From IMG/VR virus record IMGVR_UViG_3300025010_002040: a stretch of DNA of 64,000 bases; one strand, written 5' to 3'. The number at the start of each line of letters is the position of its first letter. Within the stretch, counting starts at the first letter, position 1. The notes below the pieces were generated by a model. That model ran no database searches. It was not told the DNA's origin and saw only the letters and a list, made by a program, of their open reading frames with translations. The position numbers were made by a program, and so were the translations under genes. Below, piece by piece: positions 773 through 53,803 of this stretch. Source of the stretch: an uncultured virus (IMG/VR IMGVR_UViG_3300025010_002040). Its lineage: Duplodnaviria; Heunggongvirae; Uroviricota; Caudoviricetes.

Positions 773-878
773 AGATAATGCCAAACGGTACTTGTATGCG
801 GAATATTACCATAACCTAGTGATATCTGGGAAGCTTTTCTATATGATGGTAATCCAAGTACCTTATAGGCATTTATCT
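773..878 (-). ncRNA. Putative structured RNA: long imperfect hairpin just 3' of the RNase III gene (copy 1)
   Basis: Nested inverted repeats AGATAATGCC/GGCATTTATCT, GGTACTTG/CAAGTACC, ATTACCAT/ATGGTAAT; conserved at 52575-52688. Confidence 0.55.
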
Positions 879-882
879 AAAA

Positions 883-1698
883 TTATTCTGCTTCTGGTTC
901 AATACCAAAGAAGTCACACAAAACTAGATAAGCGGCATACCTCTTAGCACCTTTCTTTGATTTAGATAGTGCTGTTTTTGTAATAGACCAGCTTCTAACA
1001 TAGCAAGTGCTTGACCACCAATACTCACCATCGTCATAGACTTGTTCATCAGGAATATCGTACTGTGGTATGGAGCATCTGCCACTTTCAGCCAATTCTT
1101 TAAGTGTGCTGACTGCATTATCCTGTGTTAGATTTTCTTTTAGCTCATCCATGCCATCTTCTACATCTTGTAATTGATCATCAATTTGAAGCATGAATTC
1201 CACAGAGTTTTGGAGCTCATCTGGATCCCAATCACTGTCAATTGCTATGGCACCCAGAATGGCTTCGAATAAATCAGCTTTAACTTTTTCTTGATTCCAT
1301 ACTTGATTATCAATATCACTTTGTCCCAAGTACATCATTGATTTGAAACCTAACTCTTCAATTCTTCTAGCAAGATTCGAATTGCTTACGATTTCCTTTT
1401 TCAGCTCAGTAAAGTCTTGCTCGTTTCGATGAGCTTTAATGCAGTACTCATCATTATCTTCTTGCTCATCATACGTATCCATTTGAGACTTGAAAAATCC
1501 GTATCTTTCAGCGATTACTTTGGTCACATAAAAATCCAATACTCGATCGCCTAAGAACTCTAAAACCTCATTGTTCTCCCCACCATATTCAGCTGAATAA
1601 GACTTTCTTGTGAAAGCTTGAAGCAGCAAATCTGTGTTCTTAAAATAGTAACTACATTTTCTTTGTACATCATCGATGTGTTCTTTTAAATCCTTCAT
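883..1698 (-). CDS. Ribonuclease III family protein (RNase III domain plus C-terminal dsRBD), prophage copy 1
   Basis: NEVLEFLGDRVL and KADLFEAILGAI motifs with four acidic catalytic residues; dsRBD-like SKSKKGAKRYAA. Start moved to MKDLKE at 1698, which follows an AGGAGG RBS. Confidence 0.92.
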   Translation of the reverse strand: MKDLKEHIDDVQRKCSYYFKNTDLLLQAFTRKSYSAEYGGENNEVLEFLGDRVLDFYVTKVIAERYGFFKSQMDTYDEQEDNDEYCIKAHRNEQDFTELKKEIVSNSNLARRIEELGFKSMMYLGQSDIDNQVWNQEKVKADLFEAILGAIAIDSDWDPDELQNSVEFMLQIDDQLQDVEDGMDELKENLTQDNAVSTLKELAESGRCSIPQYDIPDEQVYDDGEYWWSSTCYVRSWSITKTALSKSKKGAKRYAAYLVLCDFFGIEPEAE

Positions 1699-1920
1699 TT
1701 GATTTCCTCCTATTATTTGTCCGAGAAAATAAAAAAGACCTCCCGATAGAATAGGCATACTCCTGCATAGGTACACTTATCCCTTTAATAGGTCTTATTA
1801 AATCAAAATAGTACTTGTAAGACTTTAAGCATATTAACTCCCGCTTCCCGAAAGAGTTAATATACAAATCGCGTTACTCAATTACTTTGAGGAAATAATT
1901 CCCTTACCTTATCGGACTAC
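1699..1920 (-). ncRNA. Putative ~220-nt structured leader/ncRNA of the RNase III gene (copy 1)
   Basis: Closing stem 1900-1917/1719-1736, long rod 1803-1890, hairpin 1735-1796 followed by a U tract; one substitution versus copy 2. Confidence 0.65.
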
Positions 1921-1924
1921 CTTT

Positions 1925-1953
1925 AATATACAATAAAAATTGTTTTTTGTCTA
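1925..1953 (-). promoter_or_regulatory. Sigma70-type promoter of the RNase III cassette
   Basis: TAGACA-17 bp-TATATT; both boxes are kept in copy 2 although the spacer has diverged. Confidence 0.7.
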
Positions 1954-1966
1954 TACCTCTATAAAC

Positions 1967-2000
1967 AAAAAAAGACCTCCGAGATATTATCACAGAGGTC
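1967..2000 (-). terminator. Intrinsic terminator ending the P1 late operon
   Basis: GACCTC...GAGGTC stem followed by T7 on the minus strand, just after the last holin-like gene. Confidence 0.75.
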
Positions 2001-2005
2001 CATTT

Positions 2006-2491
2006 CTACTTCTTTAATTGTTCTTGAATAATTTTTTCAGCTGCAGATAAAGTCGCCCTTCCCTGCATCTTGTTACTGAAGGAAATGTAGTCATCAATGA
2101 TTGCTTCAATCTTTGATTGATTGGTTTCTACAAACGTTACGGCTTTCTCTGTTGAACCCGTGAGATTGCTTACCCACTCGCTTAATCTAGATACGACAGC
2201 GAGTTTTTTGTCATCGCCGATAAGATAAGCTTCACCTTTTTCTTTTGCGAGCCTGTTTTTCTCTTCAACAATCATGATGAACTCTTTGATGGTTTTCTGG
2301 ACACTTTCATCAAAAACAATATCTTTAGCTTTGCTTACCAAATCAGATACATTCTCTGCAGTGTTTTTAAGGTCTTGCTTCACCTCTTTGATCACATCAT
2401 TTAAAGACTGATCTTTCCCCAGTTTTGATGTCACATACAGTGCCAAAAGTAATAGGGTTGTAATGAGTAGAATGATTTCAAGTGTTGTCAT
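2006..2491 (-). CDS. Putative holin-like protein (LL-H-like architecture)
   Basis: Single N-terminal TM helix, then a helical domain with a GDDKKLAV motif; last gene of the late operon. Confidence 0.55.
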   Translation of the reverse strand: MTTLEIILLITTLLLLALYVTSKLGKDQSLNDVIKEVKQDLKNTAENVSDLVSKAKDIVFDESVQKTIKEFIMIVEEKNRLAKEKGEAYLIGDDKKLAVVSRLSEWVSNLTGSTEKAVTFVETNQSKIEAIIDDYISFSNKMQGRATLSAAEKIIQEQLKK

Positions 2492-25134: not shown

Positions 25135-26346
25135 CTATAGTGATAAATTTTGAAAGTCATCAATGTCATTAAGCGATAGCTTCTTACCCTTTCGGATCAG
25201 ATAGCAATTGTCACTTGATCCTTTGTGTCTTATATATCGTTTAACTATCACATCGACGAATCTCTCATCAAGTTCCATTAGATAAGATTTTCTTTGAAGC
25301 TGATCGGATGCGATCATAGTTGATCCAGAACCACCGAACAAATCGAGTACATATTCATTAACTCTGGAGGAGTTTGCAATTGCTCGTCCACAAAGTTCAA
25401 GTGGTTTCATCGTTGGATGGTCATCATTTCGCTTAGGCTTGTTATATTCCCAGATGGTATCTTGTGTGCGGTCATCAATAAAGTAATGAGCTGCACCTTC
25501 TTTCCATCCGTAAAGAATAGGTTCGTGTCTCCAGTGATAATCTTGTCTACCTAGTACTAAGGCATTCTTAACCCAGACTAAGCACTCCGCCAATTTGAAT
25601 CCTGCATTCTTAAATGCATTTCTAAAGTTGATACCTTCTGTATCCGCATGACAGACATAGATGGCTCCACCAGGTTTGGTTGCTTCAAACATATTTGTGA
25701 ATGCGTCATATAAAAAAAGATAGAAGCTGTTATCTTCCATCTTGTCATTCTTAATCTTGCCAGCTGTTCCTTCATAGTCCACATTATATGGTGGATCTGT
25801 GAAGATCATATCAATCTTTTGTCCATCCAGGAGTTTTTGAACATCTTGTTTCTTAGTTGAGTCACCACACATGACTCTGTGATTATCTAATAGATAGATA
25901 TCACCTAATTCAGAATAGGGTGTTTCACTAACTTCATCAGAAGGATCGAAGTCATCATCACTCGCATTATCTGGGACATCTGACTCTAACTCTTCAAAAC
26001 CAAATTGAAGCATATCAATATCGATATTCGAGAGTTCTTCTTCTAGTTTACTAAAATCCCAAGTAGCTAGTTCTGCTGTCTTGTTATCTGCCAAACGAAA
26101 GGCCTTAATTTGCCCTTCTGTGAGGTCATCTGCAGTAATACAAGGAATAGTGGCCAATCCTAGTTTAAGGCTTGCTTTGAGCCTAGTGTGGCCGGCAATT
26201 ATTACTAGATCCTTGGTGATCACTATCGGAACCTTGAATCCGAACTCTTTGATACTATTAGCTACAGCATCGACAGCAGCATCATTATTTCTTGGGTTGT
26301 TTTCGTATATTAACAACTCCGAGGGTTTCTTCATCACTATGTTCAT
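25135..26346 (-). CDS. ParB-like domain fused to N6/N4 DNA methyltransferase
   Basis: NNPR...IIAGHTR...RLADNK (ParB-like); DPPY, HPTMKP and DLFGGSGST (beta-class MTase). Confidence 0.92.
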   Translation of the reverse strand: MNIVMKKPSELLIYENNPRNNDAAVDAVANSIKEFGFKVPIVITKDLVIIAGHTRLKASLKLGLATIPCITADDLTEGQIKAFRLADNKTAELATWDFSKLEEELSNIDIDMLQFGFEELESDVPDNASDDDFDPSDEVSETPYSELGDIYLLDNHRVMCGDSTKKQDVQKLLDGQKIDMIFTDPPYNVDYEGTAGKIKNDKMEDNSFYLFLYDAFTNMFEATKPGGAIYVCHADTEGINFRNAFKNAGFKLAECLVWVKNALVLGRQDYHWRHEPILYGWKEGAAHYFIDDRTQDTIWEYNKPKRNDDHPTMKPLELCGRAIANSSRVNEYVLDLFGGSGSTMIASDQLQRKSYLMELDERFVDVIVKRYIRHKGSSDNCYLIRKGKKLSLNDIDDFQNLSL

Positions 26347-27168: not shown

Positions 27169-27450
27169 TTAATTACTTTGAACGTTTTGAGTTTTTATAA
27201 AATCAGCCAACTCGATTACTTTAAGGTTGTAATCTGCGACTAGAGCAGTTACTAGATTAACCAATTCGTTTTCAGCCTCAGATGGATCATTAATTGTGTT
27301 TTTTAATGTTATCTCTTCTTCTAGATTCTTGCTTAGTAAAAGTTCAATGAATTTAGAAAAAGTTATAGATTCATCCATTTTGTATACTTCAATTATTTCT
27401 TGATTCATAATTGCAATTCCTTCGGTTACTCTAGATATTGTTATTTCCAT
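27169..27450 (-). CDS. Small acidic protein coupled to the PHP-ATPase
   Basis: 93 aa; overlaps the upstream gene; GGAG RBS. Confidence 0.7.
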   Translation of the reverse strand: MEITISRVTEGIAIMNQEIIEVYKMDESITFSKFIELLLSKNLEEEITLKNTINDPSEAENELVNLVTALVADYNLKVIELADFIKTQNVQSN

Positions 27451-29902
27451 ATTCTTCTTCTCCTAAGATATTTCCATATTTTTTGTTTCTGTTCGAAAAT
27501 GATGGTTTACCACCGTCTAATATCTTCATGATATTAAGTTTATCATCAACATTTTCAATAAAATAATTAGTGTATGTGATATTGCCATCATTTTCAGCAT
27601 AAATATAATTAAATGCATCACCATAAACTGCTACTGATGGGTTATGTGTAACAAAAATCAGCTGTTTATCTCGTTTTTTTGACTTAATTAATGGAACGAG
27701 GTAATTACTTATATAATCATTATCAATATTATCTTCTGGTTGATCAAACATAAGAATGCTTTCAGAAAGATCAAAAATTAAATCAAGATAGGCAACGCTT
27801 TGCATGCCTAAGGATGCGTTAGATAAGTTGGTGATTGACCCCTCATCTAATAGTTTCAAAATATCATTGTAATTATTAATCTCTAAATTTGGAACCGACT
27901 TGCTGTTCATTTGATAGAACTCTTTCTTAGGTAAAAATATATCACTGTTTATGAACTTTTTCAAACCATCTGTCATATTCGATACTGTAGATTTTAGATT
28001 TTTTTCACCATTAACATATTTTTCTAGTAATGTAATAGAATTCGTATCGTTCTTTAGCTTTGATATTGAGTTTGTTAATTCTTCAACGAGCAGATCAGTA
28101 ATGTTATCTGGAATTTTATATGTAGTAACAAACATATATTTATTTACAATGGCTTTACCTATTTGTGGAGCATCTAAAGTGAAATTATTCAGCAAATGTT
28201 TTAATTTATTAAACTCAAGCAAAATTGAAAAGTTATTTTTTAGACTGGTCAATATTTGATTAATCTCACGTCTTAGATCTGTCATAACTCTCTGCAGTTC
28301 AGTTTTCCCCTTATTTACTACACCAATTCTTGTGTTATGGTTGTCAAAAATGGAATTGTAGAGATCATATAATTTCTTGAAATATGCGTGATTTTTTTTC
28401 AAGACTGAGAGCTGAACACTTATACGTTCACTGTTTATTCCTGTTGAAGAAATATCGGTCTTTATTTTATTCAACATCGTTTCAGCATTAGTGAAATATC
28501 CATCAATTGTGGTGAAGTTGAGTTTATTGTGAATAGTAAAAGTGAAGAAATCCAGTCTCCTAATTTGCTTGACTATTGAAGTTATGCTCTTGTAGTTTTT
28601 ATCGTATGGTTTAACCCCTAGAGCAATAGATAGTACTAGTTCCAACTTTGATTTGTCATATGGTGCAAGTATCGGAAACTTACTAGAAATTGTTTGTAAT
28701 GCTCTATCTGGGTTCTCGTAAACCTCTTTAATTTTATCCTGCTTTATTATAGCTATTGATGATAACTGTCCTTCTGAAAGTGGGATTCCATCATAGTAAT
28801 TACCAGAAATGTTTTTAATGTCAAATGCTTTATATTCTTTAATATCCAAACTCTCGCGATTACTTAATCTTTCAATAACAGATAGTAAAAGCGATTTACC
28901 GCTACCACGTTTCCCTACTATAACATTCAAACCAGGTGAAAATTGGATGGGATGTTGAACGCCTTTCATACTAAACTGTACGGAACCAAGTATATTACCA
29001 GGAATAACCACTTCGTTATCAGTAGTTCTTATGATTCTCGACTTAGGATCAAGAACAGCCATTTCAAACGAATCAAAATATGTATCGTAAGATCCGAAAA
29101 TGAAGTTATTCAAAACTGGTGAGTAAGGTTCGGAGTTGTGCCAATCACTAAAAGTAAAATATGAGAAATATGAACCGTAGTTAACAATATACTCATACAA
29201 TGCCTTCTCGTCATCTTCAAGCGTGTAGTTTACATCATGGATTCTTTTTCTGATATTATCGAGTAATGTTTTTCTATCTTGCTCTGTCTTATCATTAAGT
29301 ATCTCATCAGCTCTTACTGAATGTGTATAAAAGTTTGCTGCCCATTCATTTTGGCTGATTTCATTAAAGCTCGGTCTAACATCATATGCGCTAAAAATTT
29401 TATACATCGCAAATTTGTATATATCATCTTTAGAAATATCGTCGAGATACTTTAAAACATCAACAATCCCTTTCGCTTTATTACCTTCGGGTATAAGTAT
29501 AAACTTCGTTTTTAACCGAAATAATCCAGCAATTATCTCACTTAATAATGGTTTTTTCCCGTCTTTGTAAAGTTCAGTAATAATAGGGTTTATTTTTGTC
29601 ATATCGACATTTGGAGAAAAATATGTTCCCATTTGAAAAAAGTTATTAGTGTCTACATAAACATCTAACTCAACCCCATAAATCAGTCTAATATTTTTAT
29701 CCATTATATAATCTGTCAGTTTCGAATAAAAATCACAATCGAAAACATTATGATCAGTCACACTAAAAACTTCAACACCAGCATTAAGCAATATGTTTGC
29801 AAAAGATTGTGCATCCATTTCTTTGACTCTACCATTATCCTTGTGTTTTGAAGCAAATGAATGCATATGTAAATCATACTTAAGCCATTTCGATTTGTTC
29901 AT
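27431..29902 (-). CDS. PHP phosphoesterase plus ABC/AAA ATPase fusion (Ppl/TrlF-like defence protein)
   Basis: DLHMHS, VTDHN, GVE and SDWH (PHP); GKRGSGKS, ASLGM, FDQPEDNID and VTHN (ABC-type ATPase). Confidence 0.85.
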   Translation of the reverse strand: MNKSKWLKYDLHMHSFASKHKDNGRVKEMDAQSFANILLNAGVEVFSVTDHNVFDCDFYSKLTDYIMDKNIRLIYGVELDVYVDTNNFFQMGTYFSPNVDMTKINPIITELYKDGKKPLLSEIIAGLFRLKTKFILIPEGNKAKGIVDVLKYLDDISKDDIYKFAMYKIFSAYDVRPSFNEISQNEWAANFYTHSVRADEILNDKTEQDRKTLLDNIRKRIHDVNYTLEDDEKALYEYIVNYGSYFSYFTFSDWHNSEPYSPVLNNFIFGSYDTYFDSFEMAVLDPKSRIIRTTDNEVVIPGNILGSVQFSMKGVQHPIQFSPGLNVIVGKRGSGKSLLLSVIERLSNRESLDIKEYKAFDIKNISGNYYDGIPLSEGQLSSIAIIKQDKIKEVYENPDRALQTISSKFPILAPYDKSKLELVLSIALGVKPYDKNYKSITSIVKQIRRLDFFTFTIHNKLNFTTIDGYFTNAETMLNKIKTDISSTGINSERISVQLSVLKKNHAYFKKLYDLYNSIFDNHNTRIGVVNKGKTELQRVMTDLRREINQILTSLKNNFSILLEFNKLKHLLNNFTLDAPQIGKAIVNKYMFVTTYKIPDNITDLLVEELTNSISKLKNDTNSITLLEKYVNGEKNLKSTVSNMTDGLKKFINSDIFLPKKEFYQMNSKSVPNLEINNYNDILKLLDEGSITNLSNASLGMQSVAYLDLIFDLSESILMFDQPEDNIDNDYISNYLVPLIKSKKRDKQLIFVTHNPSVAVYGDAFNYIYAENDGNITYTNYFIENVDDKLNIMKILDGGKPSFSNRNKKYGNILGEEEYGNNNI

Positions 29903-30090
29903 TATATTATCCCCTCCTTGACTCGTCGTAATTATATAAAAAAAACTCTATAAGATTATTATAGAGCTAATACATGATAAATACAAAATTTATTTATATT
30001 TAACACATTCCAATATTCGTTTTTTTGAAGTAATCAAATACAAATTTTGTGATTTTGCCAGATGTTGAAAACATTCTTATGTCATTTGTA

Positions 30091-31713
30091 TTAATGTGTT
30101 CTTGATAATCGTCTGGTTTGCAATTTCTTCCAAATATTACGGAATTCCTTACATGTTTTATCACTAATTCCCAAAATATCAATCAAAATGACACTATCAA
30201 TAAGATCCATCACAACTTCAATAGCACTTCCTTTGCGAATTAAATCGTCTACTTTTTTGAGTGTCTCTAGCAATAAAGCATTATCAATATTATCGATAAT
30301 AGGCAAATAAATATCTCCTACTTCACTCGGTAAAATTTCAAGTACTCCACCACCATAACTACGACCGTTAATTTCAGTGAATGTCATAGATATGCTATTA
30401 TAATAAGACAGCAATACTATATTTGGATTCACTCCTTCACGAAATTTTATTCTGTGCATAGTATCAGTCGATATCGCATTGATCTTATTGATGACAAATT
30501 TAGGATATAGATTGTTTCTTCTTAAGAAAAAAGCGTCAGGAATCCAAATTGAAGGTACAACGTACCATTTATCACGTATTCTACATTTATAACCAGTATT
30601 TGCTTCGTTATTTACACCATACTCGATGTACTTTTTGTACCCATCTTTCAAAAGATTATCATTTTCGGGAAAATGAACTAAATATGATCTTCTACCTTTT
30701 TTGACATTAAATTCTGCATCACTTTTTGTATAGAAAATACCATGGACATGTGAACTTTTACCTATTAACGGTATACAAACTTCACTTAGATCGTAATTAA
30801 TTTTAGTTTCATCAGTAACTGAAAAATATGAGTTGTTTCCAGTTGTGACACCTACATTGATTATCGCATAATCAGAAAATTTCTTAAAACGAGCATCTTT
30901 CTTTATGGAAGATATAGCCGAAATTTCACTGCTATCCACAAAGTATTTTGTCCATTTTTCTGAAGTATTATTTGTTTTTATAAAAGGTATAGTGTCAATA
31001 TCTAGGTTATCAATATCAGAAACATTTGTCATTTGTATGACTCGGATTCCTTTATGTTTTAATCCTTTTTTTGCAATGAGAACTACAACCTCTTGCTCAA
31101 TGTCCGAAAATATTAACTCTGTAAATGTGAGCAAAGTAATCTCACTGTATTTAGAGATTAACAGATCACGCAATTGTCTAGCGTATACAACTTGTAGCAA
31201 CTCTGCTGGTAAGACAAAAACCATTGTACCATTATTGCTCAAAAGGGTTGTTGATGCCACTACAAAGGCAACCCATGAATTTATTAGTTTATTAGGGACT
31301 AGTCCTTCATGAATTAGCATTTCTGACATTTCATTTCTTTGTAATTCTGTTAAATATTGATATCTGATATATGGTGGATTCCCTATGATTAAATCAAATG
31401 AATTATTTATATTATCTAAGTAAAACTTAAAAAAATCTTCATGGACTATTTCTATATTAGATTTACTCCCATATTTTACAGAAAGCTTTGTGGTCTCTTC
31501 TTCGTTAATTTCAACTGCTGTAATCTTTGTACTTTTTCTCAATCCTGACTCAATTATTGCGTCTATAAAAACACCGTCACCGCAACTCGGTTCAAGTACG
31601 TTTTTATAGTCGGATAGACGTATGAATTTGTTAACTATAGAAGTAGCTAAATCATACGGTGTATAATACGCTCCTCTTAGTTTGATCTCTTCAGTATTAC
31701 TCTTTAGCTTCAT
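30091..31713 (-). CDS. N6-adenine DNA methyltransferase, companion of the type IIG enzyme
   Basis: GAYYTP, EPSCGDG and GNPPY motifs. Confidence 0.9.
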   Translation of the reverse strand: MKLKSNTEEIKLRGAYYTPYDLATSIVNKFIRLSDYKNVLEPSCGDGVFIDAIIESGLRKSTKITAVEINEEETTKLSVKYGSKSNIEIVHEDFFKFYLDNINNSFDLIIGNPPYIRYQYLTELQRNEMSEMLIHEGLVPNKLINSWVAFVVASTTLLSNNGTMVFVLPAELLQVVYARQLRDLLISKYSEITLLTFTELIFSDIEQEVVVLIAKKGLKHKGIRVIQMTNVSDIDNLDIDTIPFIKTNNTSEKWTKYFVDSSEISAISSIKKDARFKKFSDYAIINVGVTTGNNSYFSVTDETKINYDLSEVCIPLIGKSSHVHGIFYTKSDAEFNVKKGRRSYLVHFPENDNLLKDGYKKYIEYGVNNEANTGYKCRIRDKWYVVPSIWIPDAFFLRRNNLYPKFVINKINAISTDTMHRIKFREGVNPNIVLLSYYNSISMTFTEINGRSYGGGVLEILPSEVGDIYLPIIDNIDNALLLETLKKVDDLIRKGSAIEVVMDLIDSVILIDILGISDKTCKEFRNIWKKLQTRRLSRTH

Positions 31714-34709
31714 TTGTTCCCCTCAATAAGTTTGAATATCATTCTTATTTGATTATTTATATTTTCTATCAATGCTTGCTTTTTACTTTCAAGTATCATC
31801 GCTCTTTTACGTACCTTTTCATTTACTAAGTTAGTATTAATCTGTCTAATATGTTGAGCTGATTCTGTTATATTCCTATGAATTTCTTCCTCAAATTTAT
31901 TACTTAAATCAAGCGGATATATCAATATTTGATTCAGAATTGATGTTCCTCTAGAATAGAACCCATTTTCAAAAGGACTGCCTAAGTCTCTTACTAATTC
32001 TTCTATTATTTCAGAATTTAACCATGCTTGAATATACTCCAAACTGTATGGACTACAATCTTTTACAGCTATAGCACAATAGCCTGCTGTTCCACCAGAA
32101 GCTATAAGCATATTATCTTCATCAATACAATACATTGGAGTGTCACTCAAAATTCGTACAATTATCTTTGTACGACTATTGAAAGAAGTCAATGCTTGAG
32201 TACGTCCATATTGGTACCAAGTATCGTGAGTACTATTTGGAACATCTCTAGTTCCAATTGTAGGATCTATTTGTTTTGGCACCAATAAACTATAACAATC
32301 CATCAAGTATTCCCATGTTTTTGGATACATTTCAATCATTACACTCTTTTCGATCAAATTGCCACTTAGATCATATGGAAAAATAATAAATTTGTCAGTA
32401 GACAATTTATCATATGTTGTAAAGCCTTTTTGATTACGCAAAGTAGGTTTAAAATAAGGTCTAAGGATCGATTTTTCGATATGATATGTTTTCTTATTTC
32501 GGACCACTGATATAAGGCTGTCATTCTGATCACATATTTCAGATTGAGAGAACCAATATATAGGTTTCGGTCTTTCCGCTGATGTTTGAATTCCGTTAAA
32601 AATATCAACATAATTTATGATGCTCTTCATACAATGATTATATGCTTCTTTAAATGCTACAGAGTGTAAGCTCCATGCATCATTAGCAATGTTTTCCACA
32701 CTGATTTCACCAGATAGTAGCACTTTACTAAGTAGTAAATCATCAAGATTGCTAACTTTGTTATATTTAAGTGTTGAATTATCAACTTTCTTTTTTGAGG
32801 CAAAGAATAGCGATGTATATGTTGTCTTGTCCTCAAAAAGCTGTGTATCACCAAAATCAAACACTTCGATGCTCGATAACTCAGATACAAGTATTTCTCT
32901 TAACATAATACCCGAGTTTATTTTCATAAATTTGTTTGGAATTATAAAACCCAAGACACCATTGTCTCTCAACAAATGAATTGATCTTTCAACAAACAAA
33001 AAGTATTTGTCAAACTGCTTGTATGCCGCCTGATAATTTTGTTTGTAGTACTCAATTTCTATTGGACTTAATAGTTTATACATTCCCTCTGTATTGACAT
33101 AGGGTGGGTTACCAACTATTACATCGAATCCAGAAAAATCATTAAACTTGGTCCAACTAAACGGAACAATTGAGAATTCATCCTGTGAGGTAATAGAATC
33201 ATTATCGAACACATTAGTATTAACCAGTGAATTCCCAAATAAAATATTATTATCAAGCTTTGGTAATAGTGATGTTGATTTATCAAGTGTCGCAGATGTT
33301 TCACCTTCAAGCAGCTTAATTAACAGTGAGAATTTCGATACTTCAACTGCTTGAAGGTCTATATCTACACCATACATACAGTTAATCAATATTTTTCTTT
33401 TGTCAGCGAATGTTAATTTAGGAAAACCAGATTCAGAGAACTCAATTGAAGTCGGTTCATTTTCTTCATACCATTCAACACAGTATTCTTGCAATTGAGA
33501 ATACATCTCGACTAAAAAGACCCCTGAGCCGCAGCTTATATCAGCGAAGCGAAGTTTGACAATATCTGATGGTGTTAATCCATTCACCTTTCTATCTAGT
33601 ACGTTTTTCACAATAGTTCGTACTATTTCAATAGGAGTTGATATTATAGATTTATCAACATAGTCTTTTTTCTTCAATAAAACAATTTCATCGGCAATGA
33701 TGGATATTTTTTCAGTAATAAATAATTCGTATATTTTGCCCAATATGCTTGGTTCAATAATATTAAAAAGATATGGGCTCTCTGGATAATATAGTTCCTT
33801 AATAATGTTATAAATTACCAAATTATTCAAATCAAACATTATTCCTTGGCCGCTAAAGATGCCTGAATTGAATCGAGCATCAGCATCTTTGAAAAGCTCA
33901 TTTAGTTTATTAAGTCCTAGATCAATATCATCAAAACTGCTTTTAAGTTGATGGTATGTAGATATGTTTCGATCCTCACATATACGCAAAAAAATGAGCT
34001 TATTAATAAACCTTTGAATTTCATCATCTAGATAATCAAGGTTTGAATACATAGCATAATTTGTGTTGACTAGGTTTTTTGCAAGCGAAACACGCCAATT
34101 ATTCATTTGGTTTAAAAAGTACTTATCAATTGGGAGTATCGTTCTTGATAGTTCAAAAGAACCTTCAAGAATACTATCAAATTCACCACTGTAGACGATG
34201 TCCTTTGATATAATGCCTTTAATCTCATCGTATCTTGTTATATACTCGGTGTAATGGAATATCTTGTATCTTGATTTGCTTACAGAGTCAGTATTTAACG
34301 GGGGTTGTTTTGTATCGTAAATTACCAAATATTCGAAATTCGTCAATATTGCAATTTTATGATTGGCGTTCCATCCGTACTTTCTTGTTTGCAATGCTGA
34401 ATTATCGGAGTGTAATATATCCACCGAAGGTTTCTTTGCCTCAACGAATAATTTACTTATACCTCTTAATGTCAAAGTATAATCAGGTCTAGACATGTTC
34501 TCTTCATATTTTTCAACAACAACCTCTTTATACTGTGGTTTATTACCAATACTGTTATAAACATCCCAACCTAAAAACAAAAGTAACTTGTCAATATACT
34601 CAAGTCTGCAGGAAGTTTCATTAAATGCGTTTAATGGATTTTTATAGTATTCAATATTTTCACTAAATCTATCGATTATAATTTGAAAATCCTCTTTTGT
34701 TATAAGCAT
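31710..34709 (-). CDS. Type IIG restriction-modification enzyme (Eco57I-like REase-MTase fusion)
   Basis: N-terminal PD...VEAK nuclease; DISCGSG and GNPPY; C-terminal target recognition region. Confidence 0.9.
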   Translation of the reverse strand: MLITKEDFQIIIDRFSENIEYYKNPLNAFNETSCRLEYIDKLLLFLGWDVYNSIGNKPQYKEVVVEKYEENMSRPDYTLTLRGISKLFVEAKKPSVDILHSDNSALQTRKYGWNANHKIAILTNFEYLVIYDTKQPPLNTDSVSKSRYKIFHYTEYITRYDEIKGIISKDIVYSGEFDSILEGSFELSRTILPIDKYFLNQMNNWRVSLAKNLVNTNYAMYSNLDYLDDEIQRFINKLIFLRICEDRNISTYHQLKSSFDDIDLGLNKLNELFKDADARFNSGIFSGQGIMFDLNNLVIYNIIKELYYPESPYLFNIIEPSILGKIYELFITEKISIIADEIVLLKKKDYVDKSIISTPIEIVRTIVKNVLDRKVNGLTPSDIVKLRFADISCGSGVFLVEMYSQLQEYCVEWYEENEPTSIEFSESGFPKLTFADKRKILINCMYGVDIDLQAVEVSKFSLLIKLLEGETSATLDKSTSLLPKLDNNILFGNSLVNTNVFDNDSITSQDEFSIVPFSWTKFNDFSGFDVIVGNPPYVNTEGMYKLLSPIEIEYYKQNYQAAYKQFDKYFLFVERSIHLLRDNGVLGFIIPNKFMKINSGIMLREILVSELSSIEVFDFGDTQLFEDKTTYTSLFFASKKKVDNSTLKYNKVSNLDDLLLSKVLLSGEISVENIANDAWSLHSVAFKEAYNHCMKSIINYVDIFNGIQTSAERPKPIYWFSQSEICDQNDSLISVVRNKKTYHIEKSILRPYFKPTLRNQKGFTTYDKLSTDKFIIFPYDLSGNLIEKSVMIEMYPKTWEYLMDCYSLLVPKQIDPTIGTRDVPNSTHDTWYQYGRTQALTSFNSRTKIIVRILSDTPMYCIDEDNMLIASGGTAGYCAIAVKDCSPYSLEYIQAWLNSEIIEELVRDLGSPFENGFYSRGTSILNQILIYPLDLSNKFEEEIHRNITESAQHIRQINTNLVNEKVRKRAMILESKKQALIENINNQIRMIFKLIEGNK

Positions 34710-34772
34710 GGTAAACCCTCTCAATTTCTACTGCAGTAAATATAAACCTATTATAACATGAACAACAAGATT

Positions 34773-37137: not shown

Positions 37138-38058
37138 TCATTTTTTCTTTTTGGTAGTTTGGAATAGTGCTGTGCTTATCTGCCACTCAAGATGATTCTT
37201 AGCTTTGCTCAATCGGTGAGCATAAATCTTTGTGGTAGATATGTCTTTGTGACGCATTAATTGCTGTGCTGCATCTAAATCTCCACCCAAGTCCAGCGCT
37301 AAAGAAGCTGCTGTGTGCCTAAGGCTATGGGCAGAATACTTGGGATCATCGATCCCGATATCTCTTAGCATTTCTTTAACCACCATACTAATCATTCGTG
37401 TCCTAAGTCTGGTTCCCTGATAGGGTTTCGTATGATTAATGAAGAGTGGTTTATATTCATCTTGTCGCTCGATCAAATATTCCTCAATCAAGCTATAAAC
37501 TTCTGGAGAGAGTTTGACATACGCATCTTTCTCATCGTGACCTTTACCCATGATGTATAACACCTTGGTTTCATCCACGAAGCTGATATCATCCACATCT
37601 GCTCTTTCCACTTCAATCGTTCTTAATCCGGTTGTTAGTAATAGTGCGATCAGCGCATGATCTCTTTTTCCAATGATGCTCTTACTCGCATAGCGTTTCG
37701 CTCTGTTTAATAGTTTTATGGCCGCTTCAAGTGAAAGTGATTCCCTCTTAAAGTCGGATTCAATCTTCATACCTTTTACACCTTCAGCTGCATTGGGTCC
37801 AAAACCTTCAATGTAGTACCATCGATAAAATCCCCTTATGACTACAATGTGTTTTTGAACGGATGCAGCTCTCAATCTGGACTTCAGTTGTTCACGATAA
37901 GCCATGACATCTTGCCTGGTTGGTAGGTTAGGCAAGCCATCAGCGAACTCAGCGAACTGGGCAAGCATCTTCCCATAGGATCGCTTGGTGTTTTCTTTGA
38001 TATCGAATCTCTGTATATAAATATCGATTATCTCTCGAAAAAAGCCCTTGTCGTCCAT
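37138..38058 (-). CDS. Tyrosine recombinase (XerC/D-like)
   Basis: TGLR, GKG, HSLRH and MRH...TTKIY catalytic set. Confidence 0.92.
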   Translation of the reverse strand: MDDKGFFREIIDIYIQRFDIKENTKRSYGKMLAQFAEFADGLPNLPTRQDVMAYREQLKSRLRAASVQKHIVVIRGFYRWYYIEGFGPNAAEGVKGMKIESDFKRESLSLEAAIKLLNRAKRYASKSIIGKRDHALIALLLTTGLRTIEVERADVDDISFVDETKVLYIMGKGHDEKDAYVKLSPEVYSLIEEYLIERQDEYKPLFINHTKPYQGTRLRTRMISMVVKEMLRDIGIDDPKYSAHSLRHTAASLALDLGGDLDAAQQLMRHKDISTTKIYAHRLSKAKNHLEWQISTALFQTTKKKK

Positions 38059-39714: not shown

Positions 39715-41433
39715 ATGCAAAACAAACAAGTCAGAGTCATACAACCAAAACCTGTGTTCGATTTATCAGGAACCATCCCCAAGAACCTCAAAAAGCGCGT
39801 GTGTGCCTACGTTCGAGTGTCCACCGATAATGAGGAACAGAAAACGAGTTACATCGCTCAAACCGACGAATACACCGAAAGGATTCAAAATAACCCTGAA
39901 TGGACATTCTGTGGTATCTATGCAGACGAGGGCATCAGCGGAACTTCCACCAAGCACAGAAAACAGTTCAATAATATGATGGATGCTGCAAAGCGTGGTG
40001 AAATCGATTTGATCATGACGAAGTCAATCTCACGATTCGCTAGAAATACAGTTGATTGCTTAAACTACATCAGAGAGATGAGAGCAATCAATGTTGAGAT
40101 CTTCTTTGAAAAAGAAAACATCTACTCCTCAGATCCAAAAGTGGACTTCTTATTAACCATCATGTCATCCATCGCCCAAGAGGAAGCAAGAAACGTGAGC
40201 GAGAACGTCAAATGGAATGTTCAAAAGCGTTTCAACAATAGCGTTCCAATTGTGAATCACAATCGGTTCTTAGGTTATACCAAAGACAAACGAGGTGGTA
40301 ACCTAATCGTTGTTCCTGAAGAAGCTAAAATCGTCCGTGAAATCTTCCAAATGTATGTGAGTGGCATCGGTCCGATGAAGATTGCTAAACATATGGAATC
40401 CATAGGAGCAACTACAGGTGCTGGTGCAACCAAATGGAGTATGTCCACAGTCGCAGTTATTCTTAAGAACGAAAAATACATCGGCGATTTGGTTCAACAG
40501 AAAACACTGACGGTTGATTACCTTTCACATAAGAAAGTGAAGAATAAAGAACTCGCTCCAATGTATCATACCGAGAATGCACACGAAGCAATCATCGATA
40601 GAGAGACTTTTCTCCTTGCTCAAAGGATCAGAGAGGATCGAAGCAAGGTGAAAGTTGGTAAGGATAAGAACCTGGCCAAATACAATGTCACTTATCCATT
40701 CTCAGCATTTATCGTTTGTTCTGAATGTGGACGAACCTTGAAAAGACGCTATTGGAATTACGGTACACCAGCTCAAAGAGTTATGCAACAATGTGGTGGT
40801 TACATCGACGGTAAAGCCCACTGTAAGGCTAAAGCTACTTACCAAGAGATGATTGAAGGTGCGACTGTGAAAATGCTCAACGAGGTGTTTTTACAGGAAA
40901 AGGATATCATCCCAAACATACAGAAAATCATCAAGTCGACCATTCGAGTTAGCGATGTTGAAATCAAGATTCAAAAGCTTCAAACACAAGGCGATGAGCT
41001 TGAAAGAATGATATCAAACCTAATTGATGTTCAAGTGAAGAATCCTAATCTTTCCCAGGAGGATTTCAACAGCAAATACCAATCACTGACCTTGCAGCTT
41101 CACAATAACAAAACCGAGATCAGAAAACTTGAAGGTGAGTACTTAACGAACTACGATACGCGATCAAGACTTGCAAAGATAGAAACCACACTCAACAATT
41201 TACTAGAACCAATCCAGGAAGTTGATAGTGATACATTACGTTCATTCATTTACAAGATCATCTCAGTGACACCTGAAAACATTGTCTTCTGTGTAGCAGG
41301 AACCAAGAATTATACCGATAAAGAATTCTCAGAAAATAGACATACTTTTGAAGCACTAAAACCTTTAGCAACAGGTACTTATCATAACGAAAAGTACGGT
41401 AAAATTATGAATTACAAAGTCGTTATTATCTAA
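39715..41433 (+). CDS. Large serine recombinase (integrase)
   Basis: AYVRVST, DEGISG and KSISRFARN motifs; recombinase domain; CSECG Zn ribbon; coiled coil. Confidence 0.95.
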   Translation: MQNKQVRVIQPKPVFDLSGTIPKNLKKRVCAYVRVSTDNEEQKTSYIAQTDEYTERIQNNPEWTFCGIYADEGISGTSTKHRKQFNNMMDAAKRGEIDLIMTKSISRFARNTVDCLNYIREMRAINVEIFFEKENIYSSDPKVDFLLTIMSSIAQEEARNVSENVKWNVQKRFNNSVPIVNHNRFLGYTKDKRGGNLIVVPEEAKIVREIFQMYVSGIGPMKIAKHMESIGATTGAGATKWSMSTVAVILKNEKYIGDLVQQKTLTVDYLSHKKVKNKELAPMYHTENAHEAIIDRETFLLAQRIREDRSKVKVGKDKNLAKYNVTYPFSAFIVCSECGRTLKRRYWNYGTPAQRVMQQCGGYIDGKAHCKAKATYQEMIEGATVKMLNEVFLQEKDIIPNIQKIIKSTIRVSDVEIKIQKLQTQGDELERMISNLIDVQVKNPNLSQEDFNSKYQSLTLQLHNNKTEIRKLEGEYLTNYDTRSRLAKIETTLNNLLEPIQEVDSDTLRSFIYKIISVTPENIVFCVAGTKNYTDKEFSENRHTFEALKPLATGTYHNEKYGKIMNYKVVII

Positions 41434-52574: not shown

Positions 52575-52688
52575 TTTAAAATAATGCCAATTGGCACTTG
52601 TATGCGGAATATCACCATAACCTAGTATTATCTGGGAAGCTTTTCTATATCACGGGAATCCAAGTACCTTATAGGCAGTTATCTTAAA
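52575..52688 (-). ncRNA. Putative structured RNA 3' of the RNase III gene (copy 2)
   Basis: Same nested inverted repeats as 773-878; several changes give G-U pairs on the minus strand. Confidence 0.55.
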
Positions 52689-53504
52689 TTATTCATCTTC
52701 TGGCTCTATGCCAAAATAATCACATAGAACAAGATAAGTGGCATACTTCTTAGCACCTTTTTTTGATGAAGAGAGTGCTGTTTTTTGAATTGACCAGCTT
52801 CGAACATAGCAGGTGCATGACCACCAATACTCACCATCATCATACACTTGTTCATCAGGAATATCGTATTGTGGTATGGAACATCTCCCACTTTCAGCTA
52901 ATTCTTTTAGTGTGCTGACTGCATTATCCTGAGTTAAGTTTTCTTTAAGCTCATCCATGCCATCTTCTACATCTTGAAGTTGATCATCAATTTGAAGCAT
53001 GAATTCTACTGAATTTTGAAGCTCATCTGGATCCCAATCACTGTCAATTGCGATTGCACCAAGTATAGCTTCGAATAAATCAGCTTTAACTTTTTCTTGA
53101 GTCCATACCTTGTTATCGATATCGCTTTGTCCCAAGTACATCATTGACTTGAAACCTAACTCTTCAATCCTTCTAGCAAGATTCGAATTGCTTACAATTT
53201 CCTTTTTCAGTTCAGTAAAGTCTTGCTCGTTTCGATGAGCCTTAATGCAATATTCATCGTTATCTTCTTGCTCATAATATGTATCCGTTTGAGATTTGAA
53301 AAATCCATATCTTTCAGCGATGACTTTGGTTACATAAAAATCCAAAACTCTATCGCCTAAGAACTCTAAAACCTCATTGTTTTCCCCACCAAATTCAGCT
53401 GAATAAGACTTTCTTGTGAAAGCTTGAAGCAACAAATCTGTGTTCTTAAAATAGTAACTACATTTTCTTTGTACATCATCGATGTGTTCTTTTAAATCCT
53501 TCAT
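52689..53504 (-). CDS. Ribonuclease III family protein, prophage copy 2
   Basis: Same motifs as copy 1; 12 aa differences in 271 by manual comparison. Confidence 0.92.
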   Translation of the reverse strand: MKDLKEHIDDVQRKCSYYFKNTDLLLQAFTRKSYSAEFGGENNEVLEFLGDRVLDFYVTKVIAERYGFFKSQTDTYYEQEDNDEYCIKAHRNEQDFTELKKEIVSNSNLARRIEELGFKSMMYLGQSDIDNKVWTQEKVKADLFEAILGAIAIDSDWDPDELQNSVEFMLQIDDQLQDVEDGMDELKENLTQDNAVSTLKELAESGRCSIPQYDIPDEQVYDDGEYWWSCTCYVRSWSIQKTALSSSKKGAKKYATYLVLCDYFGIEPEDE

Positions 53505-53726
53505 TTGATTTCCTCCTATTATTTGTCCGAGAAAATAAAAAAGACCTCCCGATAGAATAGGCATACTCCTGCATAGGTACACTTATCCCTTTAATAGGTC
53601 TTATTAAATCAAAATAGTACTTGTAAGACTTTAAGCATATTAACTCCCGCTTCCCGAAAGAGTTAATATACAAATCGCGTTACTCAATTACTTTGAGGAA
53701 ATAATTCCCTTACCTTATCAGACTAC
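53505..53726 (-). ncRNA. Putative structured leader/ncRNA of the RNase III gene (copy 2)
   Basis: Identical to 1699-1920 except at position 53720. Confidence 0.65.
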
Positions 53727-53803
53727 CTTTAATATACAATAAAAATGTCCATTTGTCTACATCTCTATATTGAAAAAAGCCTCGTTGTTGAGGCTGTTTA
53801 ACG

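What the first reader, a model, noticed from the sequence alone, without database searches (positions are those of the whole stretch)
773..1953. Prophage RNase III cassette bracketed by two structured RNAs: candidate undescribed RNA-protein system
Seen: both prophages end in the same self-contained unit of promoter, ~220-nt structured non-coding RNA, an RNase III+dsRBD gene with intact catalytic residues, and a ~106-nt hairpin. It sits behind the late-operon terminator. Nucleotide homology between P1 and P2 stops almost exactly at the promoter and at the far arm of the 3' hairpin, while the neighbouring phage genes are strongly diverged. Known: chromosomal rnc lies in housekeeping context and autoregulates through a leader stem; lysis-distal prophage positions often carry defence or toxin-antitoxin morons. 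Inference: this is a mobile RNase III plus cognate RNA module. It could be an RNA-antitoxin (type III-like) or abortive-infection system, an sRNA-generating unit, or an anti-defence processing factor. I do not recognise it as a described system.
Basis: partly seen in the sequence, partly recalled or inferred. Interest (0 to 1): 0.88.

Follow-up and report, generated by a model that had tools for sequence, protein, structure and literature searches.

The report
Mobile RNase III with dedicated leader RNA
Two prophages in this window each carry a self-contained extra copy of the double-strand-RNA-cutting enzyme RNase III, always preceded by an uncatalogued, conserved 200-base folded RNA that most likely lets the enzyme throttle its own production.

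Summary
Both prophages end in promoter, ~205-nt leader, a 271-aa RNase III with dsRBD, and a ~106-nt inverted repeat. Homology between the copies starts at the promoter and stops at the repeat's far arm.

The protein belongs to a large accessory clade. It was found in 10 of 300 genomes of the class, against 41 of 41 for canonical rnc, and it separates from housekeeping Rnc in a quick tree.

The 5' leader is a real RNA family that is not in Rfam. It has four helices; 57 of 79 pairs show compensatory changes. Its fold is strand-specific in 63 of 63 sequences. It was found only directly upstream of this gene.

The closing helix pairs the transcript's 5' end with an anti-Shine-Dalgarno stretch, and a terminator-like hairpin sits inside the domain. 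In silico, removing the 5' strand closes the ribosome site. My best reading is a self-regulating leader (about 0.45).

The 3' repeat occurs only in close relatives, is strand-symmetric and shows almost no covariation, so "two cognate RNAs" is only half supported. Toxin-antitoxin or defence roles are untested. Enzyme activity, cleavage sites and biological role remain unshown.

The parts
1966..2008 (-). Terminator of the upstream (late/lysis) operon of prophage P1: hairpin followed by U7
   Evidence: Fold -18.9 kcal/mol, z -4.39, 0 of 200 shuffles as stable
1925..1953 (-). Cassette promoter TAGACA-17-TATATT
   Evidence: 10 of 12 consensus match. The -10 box sits directly upstream of the RNA 5' end in the 37-sequence alignment, with the A at position 2 and the T at position 6 invariant. 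RNA-library contigs of 4 studies do not extend upstream of 1895 (weak).
1714..1919 (-). Leader RNA domain, P1 to P4 (covariance-model match, 106.2 bits)
1903..1917 (-). P1 5' strand: the transcript's first bases, purine-rich and Shine-Dalgarno-like
   Evidence: MFE folds. End-to-end helix present in 62 of 63 leaders. Deleting or shuffling it lowers predicted SD accessibility from 0.60 to 0.26 or 0.30.
1803..1890 (-). P3: long irregular hairpin with a conserved GNRA-like apical loop
1729..1796 (-). P4 hairpin (1735-1796) plus U6 (1729-1734): intrinsic-terminator-like element inside the leader
   Evidence: Fold -19.3 kcal/mol. U-run conserved at 95% or more. Helix 7 has 4 of 7 pairs with double changes.
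1719..1733 (-). P1 3' strand: pyrimidine-rich, anti-SD-like, overlapping the U-run
1706..1711 (-). Shine-Dalgarno AGGAGG
   Evidence: Read from the sequence
883..1698 (-). 271-aa accessory RNase III (nuclease domain, ~28-aa insertion, long linker, dsRBD)
773..878 (-). 3' inverted repeat (hairpin) at the extreme end of the prophage
   Evidence: Homology with P2 ends here.
53772..53795 (-). P2 copy: upstream terminator hairpin plus U6
53520..53725 (-). P2 copy: leader RNA (101.7 bits)
52689..53504 (-). P2 copy: RNase III gene (96% aa identity to the P1 copy)
52579..52684 (-). P2 copy: 3' inverted repeat, followed by host PadR and MFS genes
   Evidence: The same host flank is seen in L062.

Best explanation
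The cassette is a mobile, self-contained transcription unit. A sigma-A-type promoter drives a ~205-nt four-helix leader RNA and a divergent but catalytically intact class-1 RNase III. The leader is a cis-regulatory domain dedicated to this gene family.

Proposed mechanism:
1. Transcription starts at the first base of helix P1.
2. Many transcripts stop at the internal P4 plus U6 terminator.
3. Read-through mRNAs form P1. This pairs the purine-rich 5' end with a pyrimidine-rich anti-SD stretch just before the real SD. The 5' end is then protected and the ribosome site stays open.
4. When the RNase III product accumulates, it cuts the long helices (P1 and/or P3) of its own leader.
5. The 5' strand is lost, the anti-SD pairs with the SD, and the mRNA gains a 5'-monophosphate end open to decay.

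The outcome is negative feedback that holds an extra dsRNA nuclease at a low set level in lysogens.

Shown: the anatomy, conservation, covariation, strand specificity, exclusive cis linkage, the protein's fold and catalytic residues, its accessory and mobile distribution, and the in-silico RBS switch.

Inferred: termination at P4, cleavage of the leader by its own product, and the feedback itself.

What the enzyme does for the element is unknown. My guess is processing or silencing of element-borne sense-antisense RNAs such as type I toxin transcripts.
For: Leader as a structured RNA:
- Single-sequence MFE folds of 37 diverse leaders show the same P1-P4 layout, except in two leaders whose 5' part is missing or replaced (L005, L091).
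- 62 of 63 distinct leaders form at least 6 end-to-end pairs, against 14 of 63 shuffled.
- On the covariance-model alignment of 68 distinct rows, 87.7% of cells are paired, against 45-52% when partners are slid. 57 of 79 pairs have double changes. The covariation score is 0.369, against 0.08 (slid) and 0.178 (shuffled, 0 of 500 as high).
- RNAalifold on plain MAFFT alignments also recovers P2, P3 and P4, with 13-14 compensatory pairs.
- The sense fold is 22.4 kcal/mol more stable than the antisense fold in 63 of 63 leaders.
- Leader diversity among 10 close relatives is 0.063, against 0.213 at CDS third positions.

Exclusive cis linkage:
- 84 of 84 model matches end 10-36 nt before the start codon, on the gene's strand.
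- In 5 genomes there are 6 matches, one before each full-length gene and none elsewhere.
- 13 of 13 viral contigs with the motif and at least 600 nt downstream carry the gene.
- 0 of 33 canonical rnc or mini-III loci match at E<=1.
- Distant long forms (36-45% identity) keep a similar leader. There P1 overlaps an RBS-sequestering terminator hairpin.

RBS switch in silico (67 leaders):
- SD unpaired probability is 0.60 in the full leader.
- It falls to 0.26 without the first 22 nt (lower in 61 of 67) and to 0.30 with those 22 nt shuffled.
- Control deletions give 0.58 and 0.54.

Protein:
- Catalytic residues are invariant.
- AF2 pLDDT is 82.8.
- Foldseek aligns the full length to E. coli, T. 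maritima and Aquifex RNase III, including the dsRBD.
Against: - No cleavage, termination or expression data exist. The RNA-library evidence is assembled contigs only, and DNA carry-over cannot be excluded.
- The covariance-model alignment is fitted to the structure, so its pair counts lean towards it.
- P1 sequences are similar across most members: swapping 5' strands still pairs in 58 of 63. P1 covariation therefore rests on a few subfamilies.
- The basal P3 helix is conserved in sequence rather than covarying: helix 4 has 4 pairs that never vary and 6 that vary on one side only. This could mean recognition by another factor or an alternative fold.
- No antiterminator was found by eye, so control at P4 is unexplained.
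- The P4 hairpin's energy alone is not unusual (z -1.19).
- Intact genes exist with the 5' half of the leader replaced (L014, L068, L091, L101). The full leader is therefore not indispensable.
Confidence: 0.45

Rival explanations
1. RNA-protein toxin-antitoxin or abortive-infection module (type III-like). The abundant terminated leader RNA binds and neutralises the RNase III. When transcription is shut off by an infecting phage, the RNA decays and the nuclease is released.
For: - The gene order promoter, structured RNA, terminator, endoribonuclease matches the ToxIN layout (recalled from the literature, no call).
- The position is moron-like, behind the late-operon terminator of prophages.
- The RNA and the protein always occur together.
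- Neighbours include SymE toxin genes and defence-island-like genes.
Against: - No tandem repeats in the RNA.
- The nuclease is not ToxN-like, and there is no PADLOC match beyond chance.
- P1 needs sequence downstream of the terminator, so the conserved fold belongs to the full mRNA, not to the short RNA.
- Four intact genes lack the 5' half of the leader.
- Every host examined already tolerates a canonical RNase III (41 of 41).
Confidence: 0.12
2. Riboswitch-like or factor-sensing leader. The P1-P4 domain binds a small molecule or a protein other than its own product, and switches P1 against the terminator or RBS hairpin.
For: - The conserved core comes with different expression platforms. 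In the main family the terminator lies inside the domain. In the distant long forms a separate terminator and RBS hairpin overlaps P1 by 4 nt.
- Many invariant nucleotides lie in loops and in basal P3.
Against: - A ligand-sensing switch in front of an RNase III on mobile elements has no obvious logic.
- The RNA is found with no other gene, which is unusual for a metabolite sensor.
- No Rfam riboswitch similarity.
Confidence: 0.15
3. The leader is the precursor of a stable non-coding RNA with its own trans function. The RNase III is its dedicated maturation enzyme and cuts the P1 stalk, as in rRNA processing.
For: - P1 is an end-to-end stalk enclosing a compact multi-helix domain.
- The internal terminator would release a discrete RNA of about 190 nt.
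- The leader is conserved more strongly than synonymous sites.
Against: - No copy of the RNA was found away from the gene.
- No target or partner is evident.
- The P1 3' strand doubles as an anti-SD next to the RBS, which points to cis control.
Confidence: 0.1
4. On the 3' element only: the ~106-nt inverted repeat is not a second cognate RNA. It is an end-of-element feature. It could be a terminator substitute or 3' stabiliser, a DNA-level site next to the attachment junction, or a lambda-sib-like hairpin read from the convergent integrase gene once the phage circularises.
For: - Present only in the close group: 27 distinct copies.
- Sense and antisense folds are equally stable (mean difference -0.6 kcal/mol; sense better in 15 of 27).
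- Only 2 of 24 pairs have double changes.
- In 9 of 27 copies similarity to the window ends within the repeat's 3' arm, in 8 of them after CAAGTA(C), as at an element boundary. Flanks beyond it differ widely.
- In P1 the serine integrase (39715-41433, plus strand) points at the other prophage end.
Against: - Some structure-neutral and compensatory changes exist in the basal and middle stems.
- It lies within the transcription unit, directly after the stop codon.
- No recombinase was found within about 0.4-4 kb downstream in any of 9 loci, 20 ORFs scanned. The circular-form idea could therefore not be tested.
Confidence: 0.5
5. Ordinary duplicated housekeeping rnc gene with a chance-structured upstream region.
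For: Same domain architecture as Rnc.
Against: - TIGR02191 scores 103.6 bits, below the 166.25 cut-off.
- A family HMM scores members at 150-525 bits and 31 canonical Rnc at 36-63 bits.
- The family forms a separate clade with 100% SH-aLRT, and the host's own Rnc sits inside the canonical clade (quick tree).
- Patchy distribution: 10 of 300 genomes, against 41 of 41 for canonical rnc.
- Leader covariation.
Confidence: 0.02

Closest known systems
Autoregulatory leader of the E. coli rnc operon (rncO), cleaved by RNase III itself (recalled from the literature; no call)
   Same: An RNase III gene preceded by a structured 5' untranslated region. The proposed logic is the same: the product cuts its own leader and lowers its own mRNA.
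   Different: - No sequence or structure similarity: no Rfam family matched even at E<=10.
- Here the leader is a ~205-nt four-helix domain with an internal terminator and an anti-anti-SD closing helix.
- It is attached to a mobile accessory paralogue, not to the housekeeping gene.
- 0 of 33 canonical rnc or mini-III loci carry it.
Bacterial housekeeping RNase III (Rnc; NCBIfam TIGR02191)
   Same: Nuclease domain with the invariant acidic residues, plus a C-terminal dsRBD. The best structural matches are E. coli, T. maritima and Aquifex RNase III.
   Different: - Below the equivalog cut-off.
- Carries a ~28-aa insertion and a longer linker.
- Five conserved cysteines.
- Separate clade.
- Sporadic, on prophages and islands.
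Type III toxin-antitoxin systems such as ToxIN (recalled)
   Same: Order promoter, non-coding RNA, terminator, endoribonuclease gene, on mobile elements.
   Different: - The RNA is a single complex fold, not tandem repeats.
- The nuclease is an RNase III.
- No PADLOC match.
- The conserved fold spans the terminator.
Phage lambda RNase III sites: sib retroregulation of int, and the N-leader hairpin (recalled)
   Same: Phage hairpins used by RNase III to control phage genes. The 3' repeat here sits at the attachment-site end of the prophage, as sib does.
   Different: Lambda relies on the host enzyme, whereas these elements bring their own. A link between the repeat and int is only conjecture (could not test it).
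B. subtilis RNase III silencing prophage type I toxins (PMC3531473; title and abstract start seen in the listing)
   Same: It links RNase III to the control of prophage-borne toxin mRNAs. Four family members have a SymE-type toxin gene directly downstream.
   Different: There the enzyme is the host's essential Rnc. Here the element encodes the enzyme. No antisense RNA was looked for.

Membership tests
Class-1 RNase III (Rnc-like) | RNase III nuclease domain with the conserved acidic catalytic residues | tested here: met
   PF14622 at 64.5 bits and PF00636 at 57.8 bits. The E-x-x-E-x-x-x-D and D-x-x-E positions are invariant in 22 of 22. They align to the T. maritima enzyme.
Class-1 RNase III (Rnc-like) | C-terminal double-stranded-RNA-binding domain | tested here: met
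   The AF2 model has an alpha-beta3-alpha domain at residues 195-264. Foldseek gives full-length alignments to RNase III-dsRNA complexes. Pfam dsrm hits the long forms but not the window protein.
Housekeeping Rnc (TIGR02191 equivalog) | Score above the curated equivalog cut-off | tested here: not met
   103.6 bits against a cut-off of 166.25
Housekeeping Rnc (TIGR02191 equivalog) | Universal single-copy presence, and grouping with chromosomal Rnc | tested here: not met
   10 of 300 genomes, against 41 of 41 for canonical rnc. Separate clade with 100% SH-aLRT in a quick tree.
rnc-type autoregulatory leader | Structured 5' UTR specific to the RNase III gene | tested here: met
rnc-type autoregulatory leader | Cleavage of the leader by its own product, with an effect on the mRNA | not testable with these tools
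   Only in-silico RBS accessibility is available
Type III toxin-antitoxin | RNA gene, then terminator, then endoribonuclease gene in one unit | tested here: met
   P4 plus U6 lies between the RNA body and the gene
Type III toxin-antitoxin | Antitoxin RNA built of tandem direct repeats processed by the toxin | tested here: not met
   Tandem Repeats Finder gives 0 rows on 700-2050
Type III toxin-antitoxin | Toxin of a ToxN, AbiQ or CptN-type family, or any catalogued defence protein | tested here: not met
   PADLOC gives only a chance-level row (E 0.0044)
Type III toxin-antitoxin | Toxicity neutralised by the RNA | not testable with these tools
   -
Riboswitch | Conserved aptamer-like core with variable expression platforms | tested here: inconclusive
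   Two platform types were seen. No ligand is known, and there is no Rfam match.
Any Rfam 15 family | Match at or near the gathering score | tested here: not met
   0 matches at gathering score in the window. Two chance-level rows at E 1.7 and 3.2, neither in the leader body.

The most novel reading that the evidence does not exclude
The leader and the enzyme form a two-component RNA-protein device rather than a simple feedback loop. In this reading a mobile RNase III with a cysteine-rich dsRBD is guided by the conserved GNRA-like apical loop of P3, in the manner of yeast Rnt1p (recalled). It is held in check by an excess of terminated leader RNA. On phage attack or prophage induction it is released to cut specific dsRNAs. 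That would make it a new kind of RNA-controlled abortive-infection or anti-defence nuclease carried at the attachment-site end of temperate phages.
Probability: 0.12. Interest if true: 0.85.

Novelty: new variant of a known kind. Interest (0 to 1): 0.6.

Why it matters
Bacterial phages are normally described as borrowing the host's RNase III. Here a large, uncatalogued clade of the enzyme travels on prophages and genomic islands of wall-less Bacilli and gut or digester Firmicutes. One protein search gave 1003 proteins at E<=0.001. At least 480 metagenome stretches encode a relative.

The gene always comes with its own covarying ~200-nt leader. That gives three things:
- a new structured RNA family with a concrete, testable switch model;
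- a natural pair for studying how an RNase III recognises a specific substrate;
- a handle on why temperate elements would invest in a private dsRNA nuclease, whether for toxin silencing, transcript processing, defence or counter-defence.

Tried and rejected
- GenBank phage records: no DNA match. Only distant RNase III hits below 30% identity, in 10 records. No cultured phage reference was found in this collection.
- Class-wide genome search with the RNA model: 0 of 151. It is uninformative. The set held no genome with an intact leader, because G001's copy is cut by a contig end, and only 16 candidates per genome were scored.
- RNA libraries: contigs of 4 metatranscriptome studies cover 777-1895. 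Contigs cannot show ends, strand or level, and DNA carry-over is possible. I use this only as a weak hint that nothing upstream of 1895 is co-assembled.
- Idea that an attachment site lies inside the leader: six viral contigs end within the leader or the early CDS, but at different positions, so these are assembly breaks. L014 does fuse tRNA-Cys to the leader's 3' half. This is unexplained.
- sib-like test: no recombinase downstream of the repeat in 9 loci, 20 ORFs. All look integrated, so the circular form could not be examined.
- ESM Atlas on the coupled N/Q-rich 54-aa ORF: only low-complexity look-alikes. Pfam: none.
- PADLOC: nothing beyond chance.
- Earlier findings of this scan: none on this family.
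- Careful maximum-likelihood tree: not finished within the time limit. The quick tree is reported.
Full report
**What is there.** The cassette lies on the minus strand.

In prophage P1 the parts are:
- A strong hairpin plus U7 at 1966-2008 (-18.9 kcal/mol, z -4.39). It closes the upstream lysis/late operon.
- A TAGACA-17-TATATT promoter at 1953..1925.
- A ~205-nt untranslated leader at 1714-1919.
- AGGAGG, followed by a 271-aa ORF at 883-1698.
- An imperfect ~106-nt inverted repeat at 773-878.

The same unit recurs at 52579-53759 in the second prophage, again behind a hairpin plus U6.

Identity between the two copies:
- leader 225/226
- first 90 CDS bases 89/90
- rest of the CDS 653/723
- 3' repeat 99/113
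- both flanks 42-48%
- 52 synonymous against 12 non-synonymous codon differences

P1 is a genuine prophage. It has tape measure, major head protein, portal, large terminase, anti-repressor, repressor and a large serine integrase at 39715-41433. P2 shows holins next to the cassette.

One caveat applies to the promoter. The consensus scan found no more sites than chance (9 against 9.5 expected). The promoter call rests on the -10 box being conserved directly upstream of the RNA 5' end in 37 homologues.

**The protein.**
- Pfam finds only the two RNase III nuclease models.
- TIGR02191 aligns through to its dsRBD end but scores 103.6 bits, below the 166.25 equivalog cut-off.
- In an alignment of 22 members the catalytic acidic positions are invariant. 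So are four cysteines, and a fifth is nearly invariant.
- AlphaFold gives pLDDT 82.8, with a canonical alpha-beta3-alpha domain at residues 195-264, a poorly modelled insertion at about 67-92, and a long linker.
- Foldseek's best hits are full-length E. coli, T. maritima and Aquifex RNase III. The PDB profile search shows the insertion as the gap between the two aligned stretches.

The family is large. One search gave 1003 proteins at E<=0.001 among 1653 candidates. The top 120 were 62-92% identical and were named, where named at all, as ribonuclease III domain proteins of Izemoplasmatales or Bacilli MAGs. A metagenome scan found 480 of 587 stretches encoding a relative.

It is an accessory gene:
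- 10 of 300 genomes of the class carry it at E<=1e-30, and 2 of 7 in the nearest genus.
- Canonical rnc is present in 41 of 41 genomes.
- The nearest held genome has its own 225-aa Rnc as well.
- A family HMM scores members and long forms at 150-525 bits, and 31 canonical Rnc ORFs at 36-63 bits.
- In a quick IQ-TREE, the family plus the 342-379-aa long forms are split from canonical Rnc by a branch with 100% SH-aLRT. The host Rnc sits inside the canonical group. The careful search did not finish.

**The 5' leader is a real, new RNA family.**
- Upstream regions of homologues down to 46% protein identity share a recognisable leader that begins a few bases after the -10 box.
- Independent MFE folds of 37 diverse leaders show the same layout, apart from two whose 5' part is missing or replaced (L005, L091). 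P1 pairs the first bases with a stretch lying after the U-run. P2 is a small hairpin. P3 is a long irregular hairpin with a conserved GNRA-like apical loop. P4 is a GC-based hairpin followed by U6.
- A covariance model built from 8 sequences matched 84 places in 83 of 100 sources (594 kb). Every match is on the gene's strand and ends 10-36 nt before its start codon.
- The 17 sources without a match fall into four groups. L020-L024 and L026-L029 have 5'-truncated or partial genes. L014, L088, L091 and L101 have replaced leaders. L120 is cut by a contig end. L055-L057 are distant long forms.
- On 68 distinct rows, 87.7% of cells pair, against 45-52% when partners are slid. 57 of 79 pairs have double changes. 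The covariation score is 0.369, against about 0.08 (slid) and 0.178 (shuffled; 0 of 500 as high).
- That alignment is fitted to the model. However, RNAalifold on plain MAFFT alignments also finds P2, P3 and P4 with 13-14 compensatory pairs. In addition, 62 of 63 leaders form the end-to-end helix in their own MFE fold, against 14 of 63 shuffles.
- The sense strand folds 22.4 kcal/mol better than the antisense strand in 63 of 63 leaders.
- Among 10 close relatives the leader varies 0.063 per site, against 0.213 at third codon positions.
- Rfam has nothing: 0 matches at gathering score in the window, and two chance-level rows at E<=10.

**Exclusive linkage of RNA and gene.**
- In five genomes that carry the gene, the model finds six matches, one before each full-length copy and none elsewhere.
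- A leader word found 19 viral contigs. All 13 with at least 600 nt downstream carry the gene. The other 6 end within 205 nt, at different positions.
- None of 33 canonical rnc or mini-III loci matches at E<=1. The distant long forms give weak matches of 16.6-17.6 bits.
- Their leaders fold into a similar domain, whose P1 overlaps by four bases a terminator-like hairpin that also buries the ribosome site.

**Mechanistic reading.** The P1 5' strand is purine-rich and SD-like. The 3' strand is pyrimidine-rich and complementary to the real SD, which lies about 10-25 nt further on.

Partition-function folding of 67 leaders plus 45 nt gives these mean SD unpaired probabilities:
- 0.60 in the full RNA
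- 0.26 when the first 22 nt are removed (lower in 61 of 67)
- 0.30 when those 22 nt are shuffled
- 0.58 and 0.54 for two control deletions elsewhere

So P1 acts, in silico, as an anti-anti-SD. With a terminator-like P4 inside the domain and an RNase III as the product, the simplest model is self-limitation. Read-through mRNAs are translatable while P1 stands. The enzyme cuts its own leader helices. The RBS then closes and the mRNA loses its protected 5' end.

Cleavage, termination and feedback are inferences. I found no antiterminator for P4, and the basal P3 helix is conserved in sequence rather than covarying. A factor-sensing leader, a stable trans-acting RNA and a type III-like antitoxin RNA therefore stay open as rivals.

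Against the last of these:
- There are no tandem repeats.
- There is no PADLOC match.
- The conserved fold spans the terminator.
- Four intact genes lack the leader's 5' half.

**The 3' repeat.** It is found only in the close group (above about 92% identity), as 27 distinct copies. Other subgroups carry tightly coupled ORFs instead. Of the 44 distinct downstream ORFs listed:
- 16 are an N/Q-rich ~54-aa peptide.
- 4 are a SymE-type toxin (PF08845 at 48.9 bits for L096).
- 5, plus one truncated copy, are a 138-aa protein of unknown family.
- 2 are a nucleotidyltransferase.

The repeat folds equally well on both strands (mean difference -0.6 kcal/mol; sense better in 15 of 27). Only 2 of 24 consensus pairs show double changes. 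In 9 of the 27 copies similarity ends inside its 3' arm, in 8 of them after CAAGTA(C). Beyond it the flanks differ widely.

It marks the very end of the mobile element. Whether it works as RNA is not shown.

**Context.** In 22 representative loci (111 flanking ORFs):
- Large serine recombinase genes or fragments lie within 3 kb in 8 loci (L062, L079, L081, L038, L092, L102, L108, L051).
- Hol44 holins lie directly upstream in 3 loci (L079, L081, L087).
- Several loci show no phage genes nearby: L083 next to groES/EL, and L117, L122 and L135.
- L062 sits at the same PadR/MFS host site as P2, but with two recombinases upstream.

At least a dozen copies are broken, by internal stops or by 5' truncation. 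This fits a dispensable cargo gene. No close relative exists in 50,697 GenBank phage records.

**Literature.** Four full-text searches were run, and only listings and abstract starts were seen.
- The phrases for phage-encoded or viral RNase III gave 52 papers. The 25 listed concern eukaryotic-virus enzymes, plus one paper on Aquifex RNase III.
- Two further searches listed nothing on such a system.
- One search listed PMC3531473 on B. subtilis RNase III silencing prophage toxins.

The comparisons with rncO, ToxIN, lambda sib and Rnt1p are recalled, not read here.

**Verdict.** This is a mobile accessory RNase III with one dedicated, covarying leader RNA, most likely self-regulatory. The second RNA is doubtful, and no defence or toxin role has been shown.

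Noticed in passing
window protein residues 86, 208, 230, 232, 261 (CDS 883-1698, minus strand): Four cysteines are invariant and a fifth is nearly invariant across 22 family members, and four of the five lie in the dsRBD. This may be a zinc site or a disulphide. Canonical Rnc was not checked for them.
   Followed up: no
L087:3824-3988, L079, L081, L083 and others: A ~54-aa N/Q-rich ORF overlaps or abuts the RNase III stop codon in 16 distinct homologues. It has no Pfam family, and the Atlas search was uninformative.
   Followed up: partly
L096:3847-4116, L092, L105, L108: A SymE-type type I toxin gene (PF08845, 48.9 bits) lies 16 nt downstream of the RNase III gene in four distinct homologues. 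No antisense RNA was looked for.
   Followed up: partly
L014:1034-1108 and the bases after it: A tRNA-Cys(GCA) gene is fused directly to the 3' half of the leader. The promoter and P1-P3 are missing, yet the gene is intact. L016, L068 and L088 have another sequence, with repeated GGGGTG-type words, at the same junction.
   Followed up: partly
L020, L021, L022, L024, L067, L076 (upstream of the match): The 5' end of the RNase III gene is replaced by a shared ~90-nt sequence containing an inverted repeat, which looks like the end of an inserted small mobile element. These copies lack a start codon.
   Followed up: no
window 37138-38058 (minus) and 39715-41433 (plus): Prophage P1 carries both a tyrosine recombinase (PF00589) and a large serine integrase.
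   Followed up: no
window 25135-26346 and 27431-34724: P1 has a ParB-like/DNA methyltransferase fusion. It also has a block of very large ORFs (823, 540 and 1004 aa), two of which (540 and 1004 aa) have methyltransferase or DarB-like matches; the 823-aa ORF matched no family.
   Followed up: no
window 42869-43684 (minus): A chromosomal 271-aa patatin-like phospholipase (PF01734), with weak similarity to CBASS-type lipases, lies near the prophage junction, one glycosyltransferase gene away, beside TetR and DegV genes.
   Followed up: no
window CDS positions 1-180 (1519-1698, minus strand): Among 10 close relatives, third-position diversity in the first 180 nt of the CDS is half that of the rest (0.121 against 0.24). 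This could be recombination or RNA-level constraint reaching into the CDS.
   Followed up: partly
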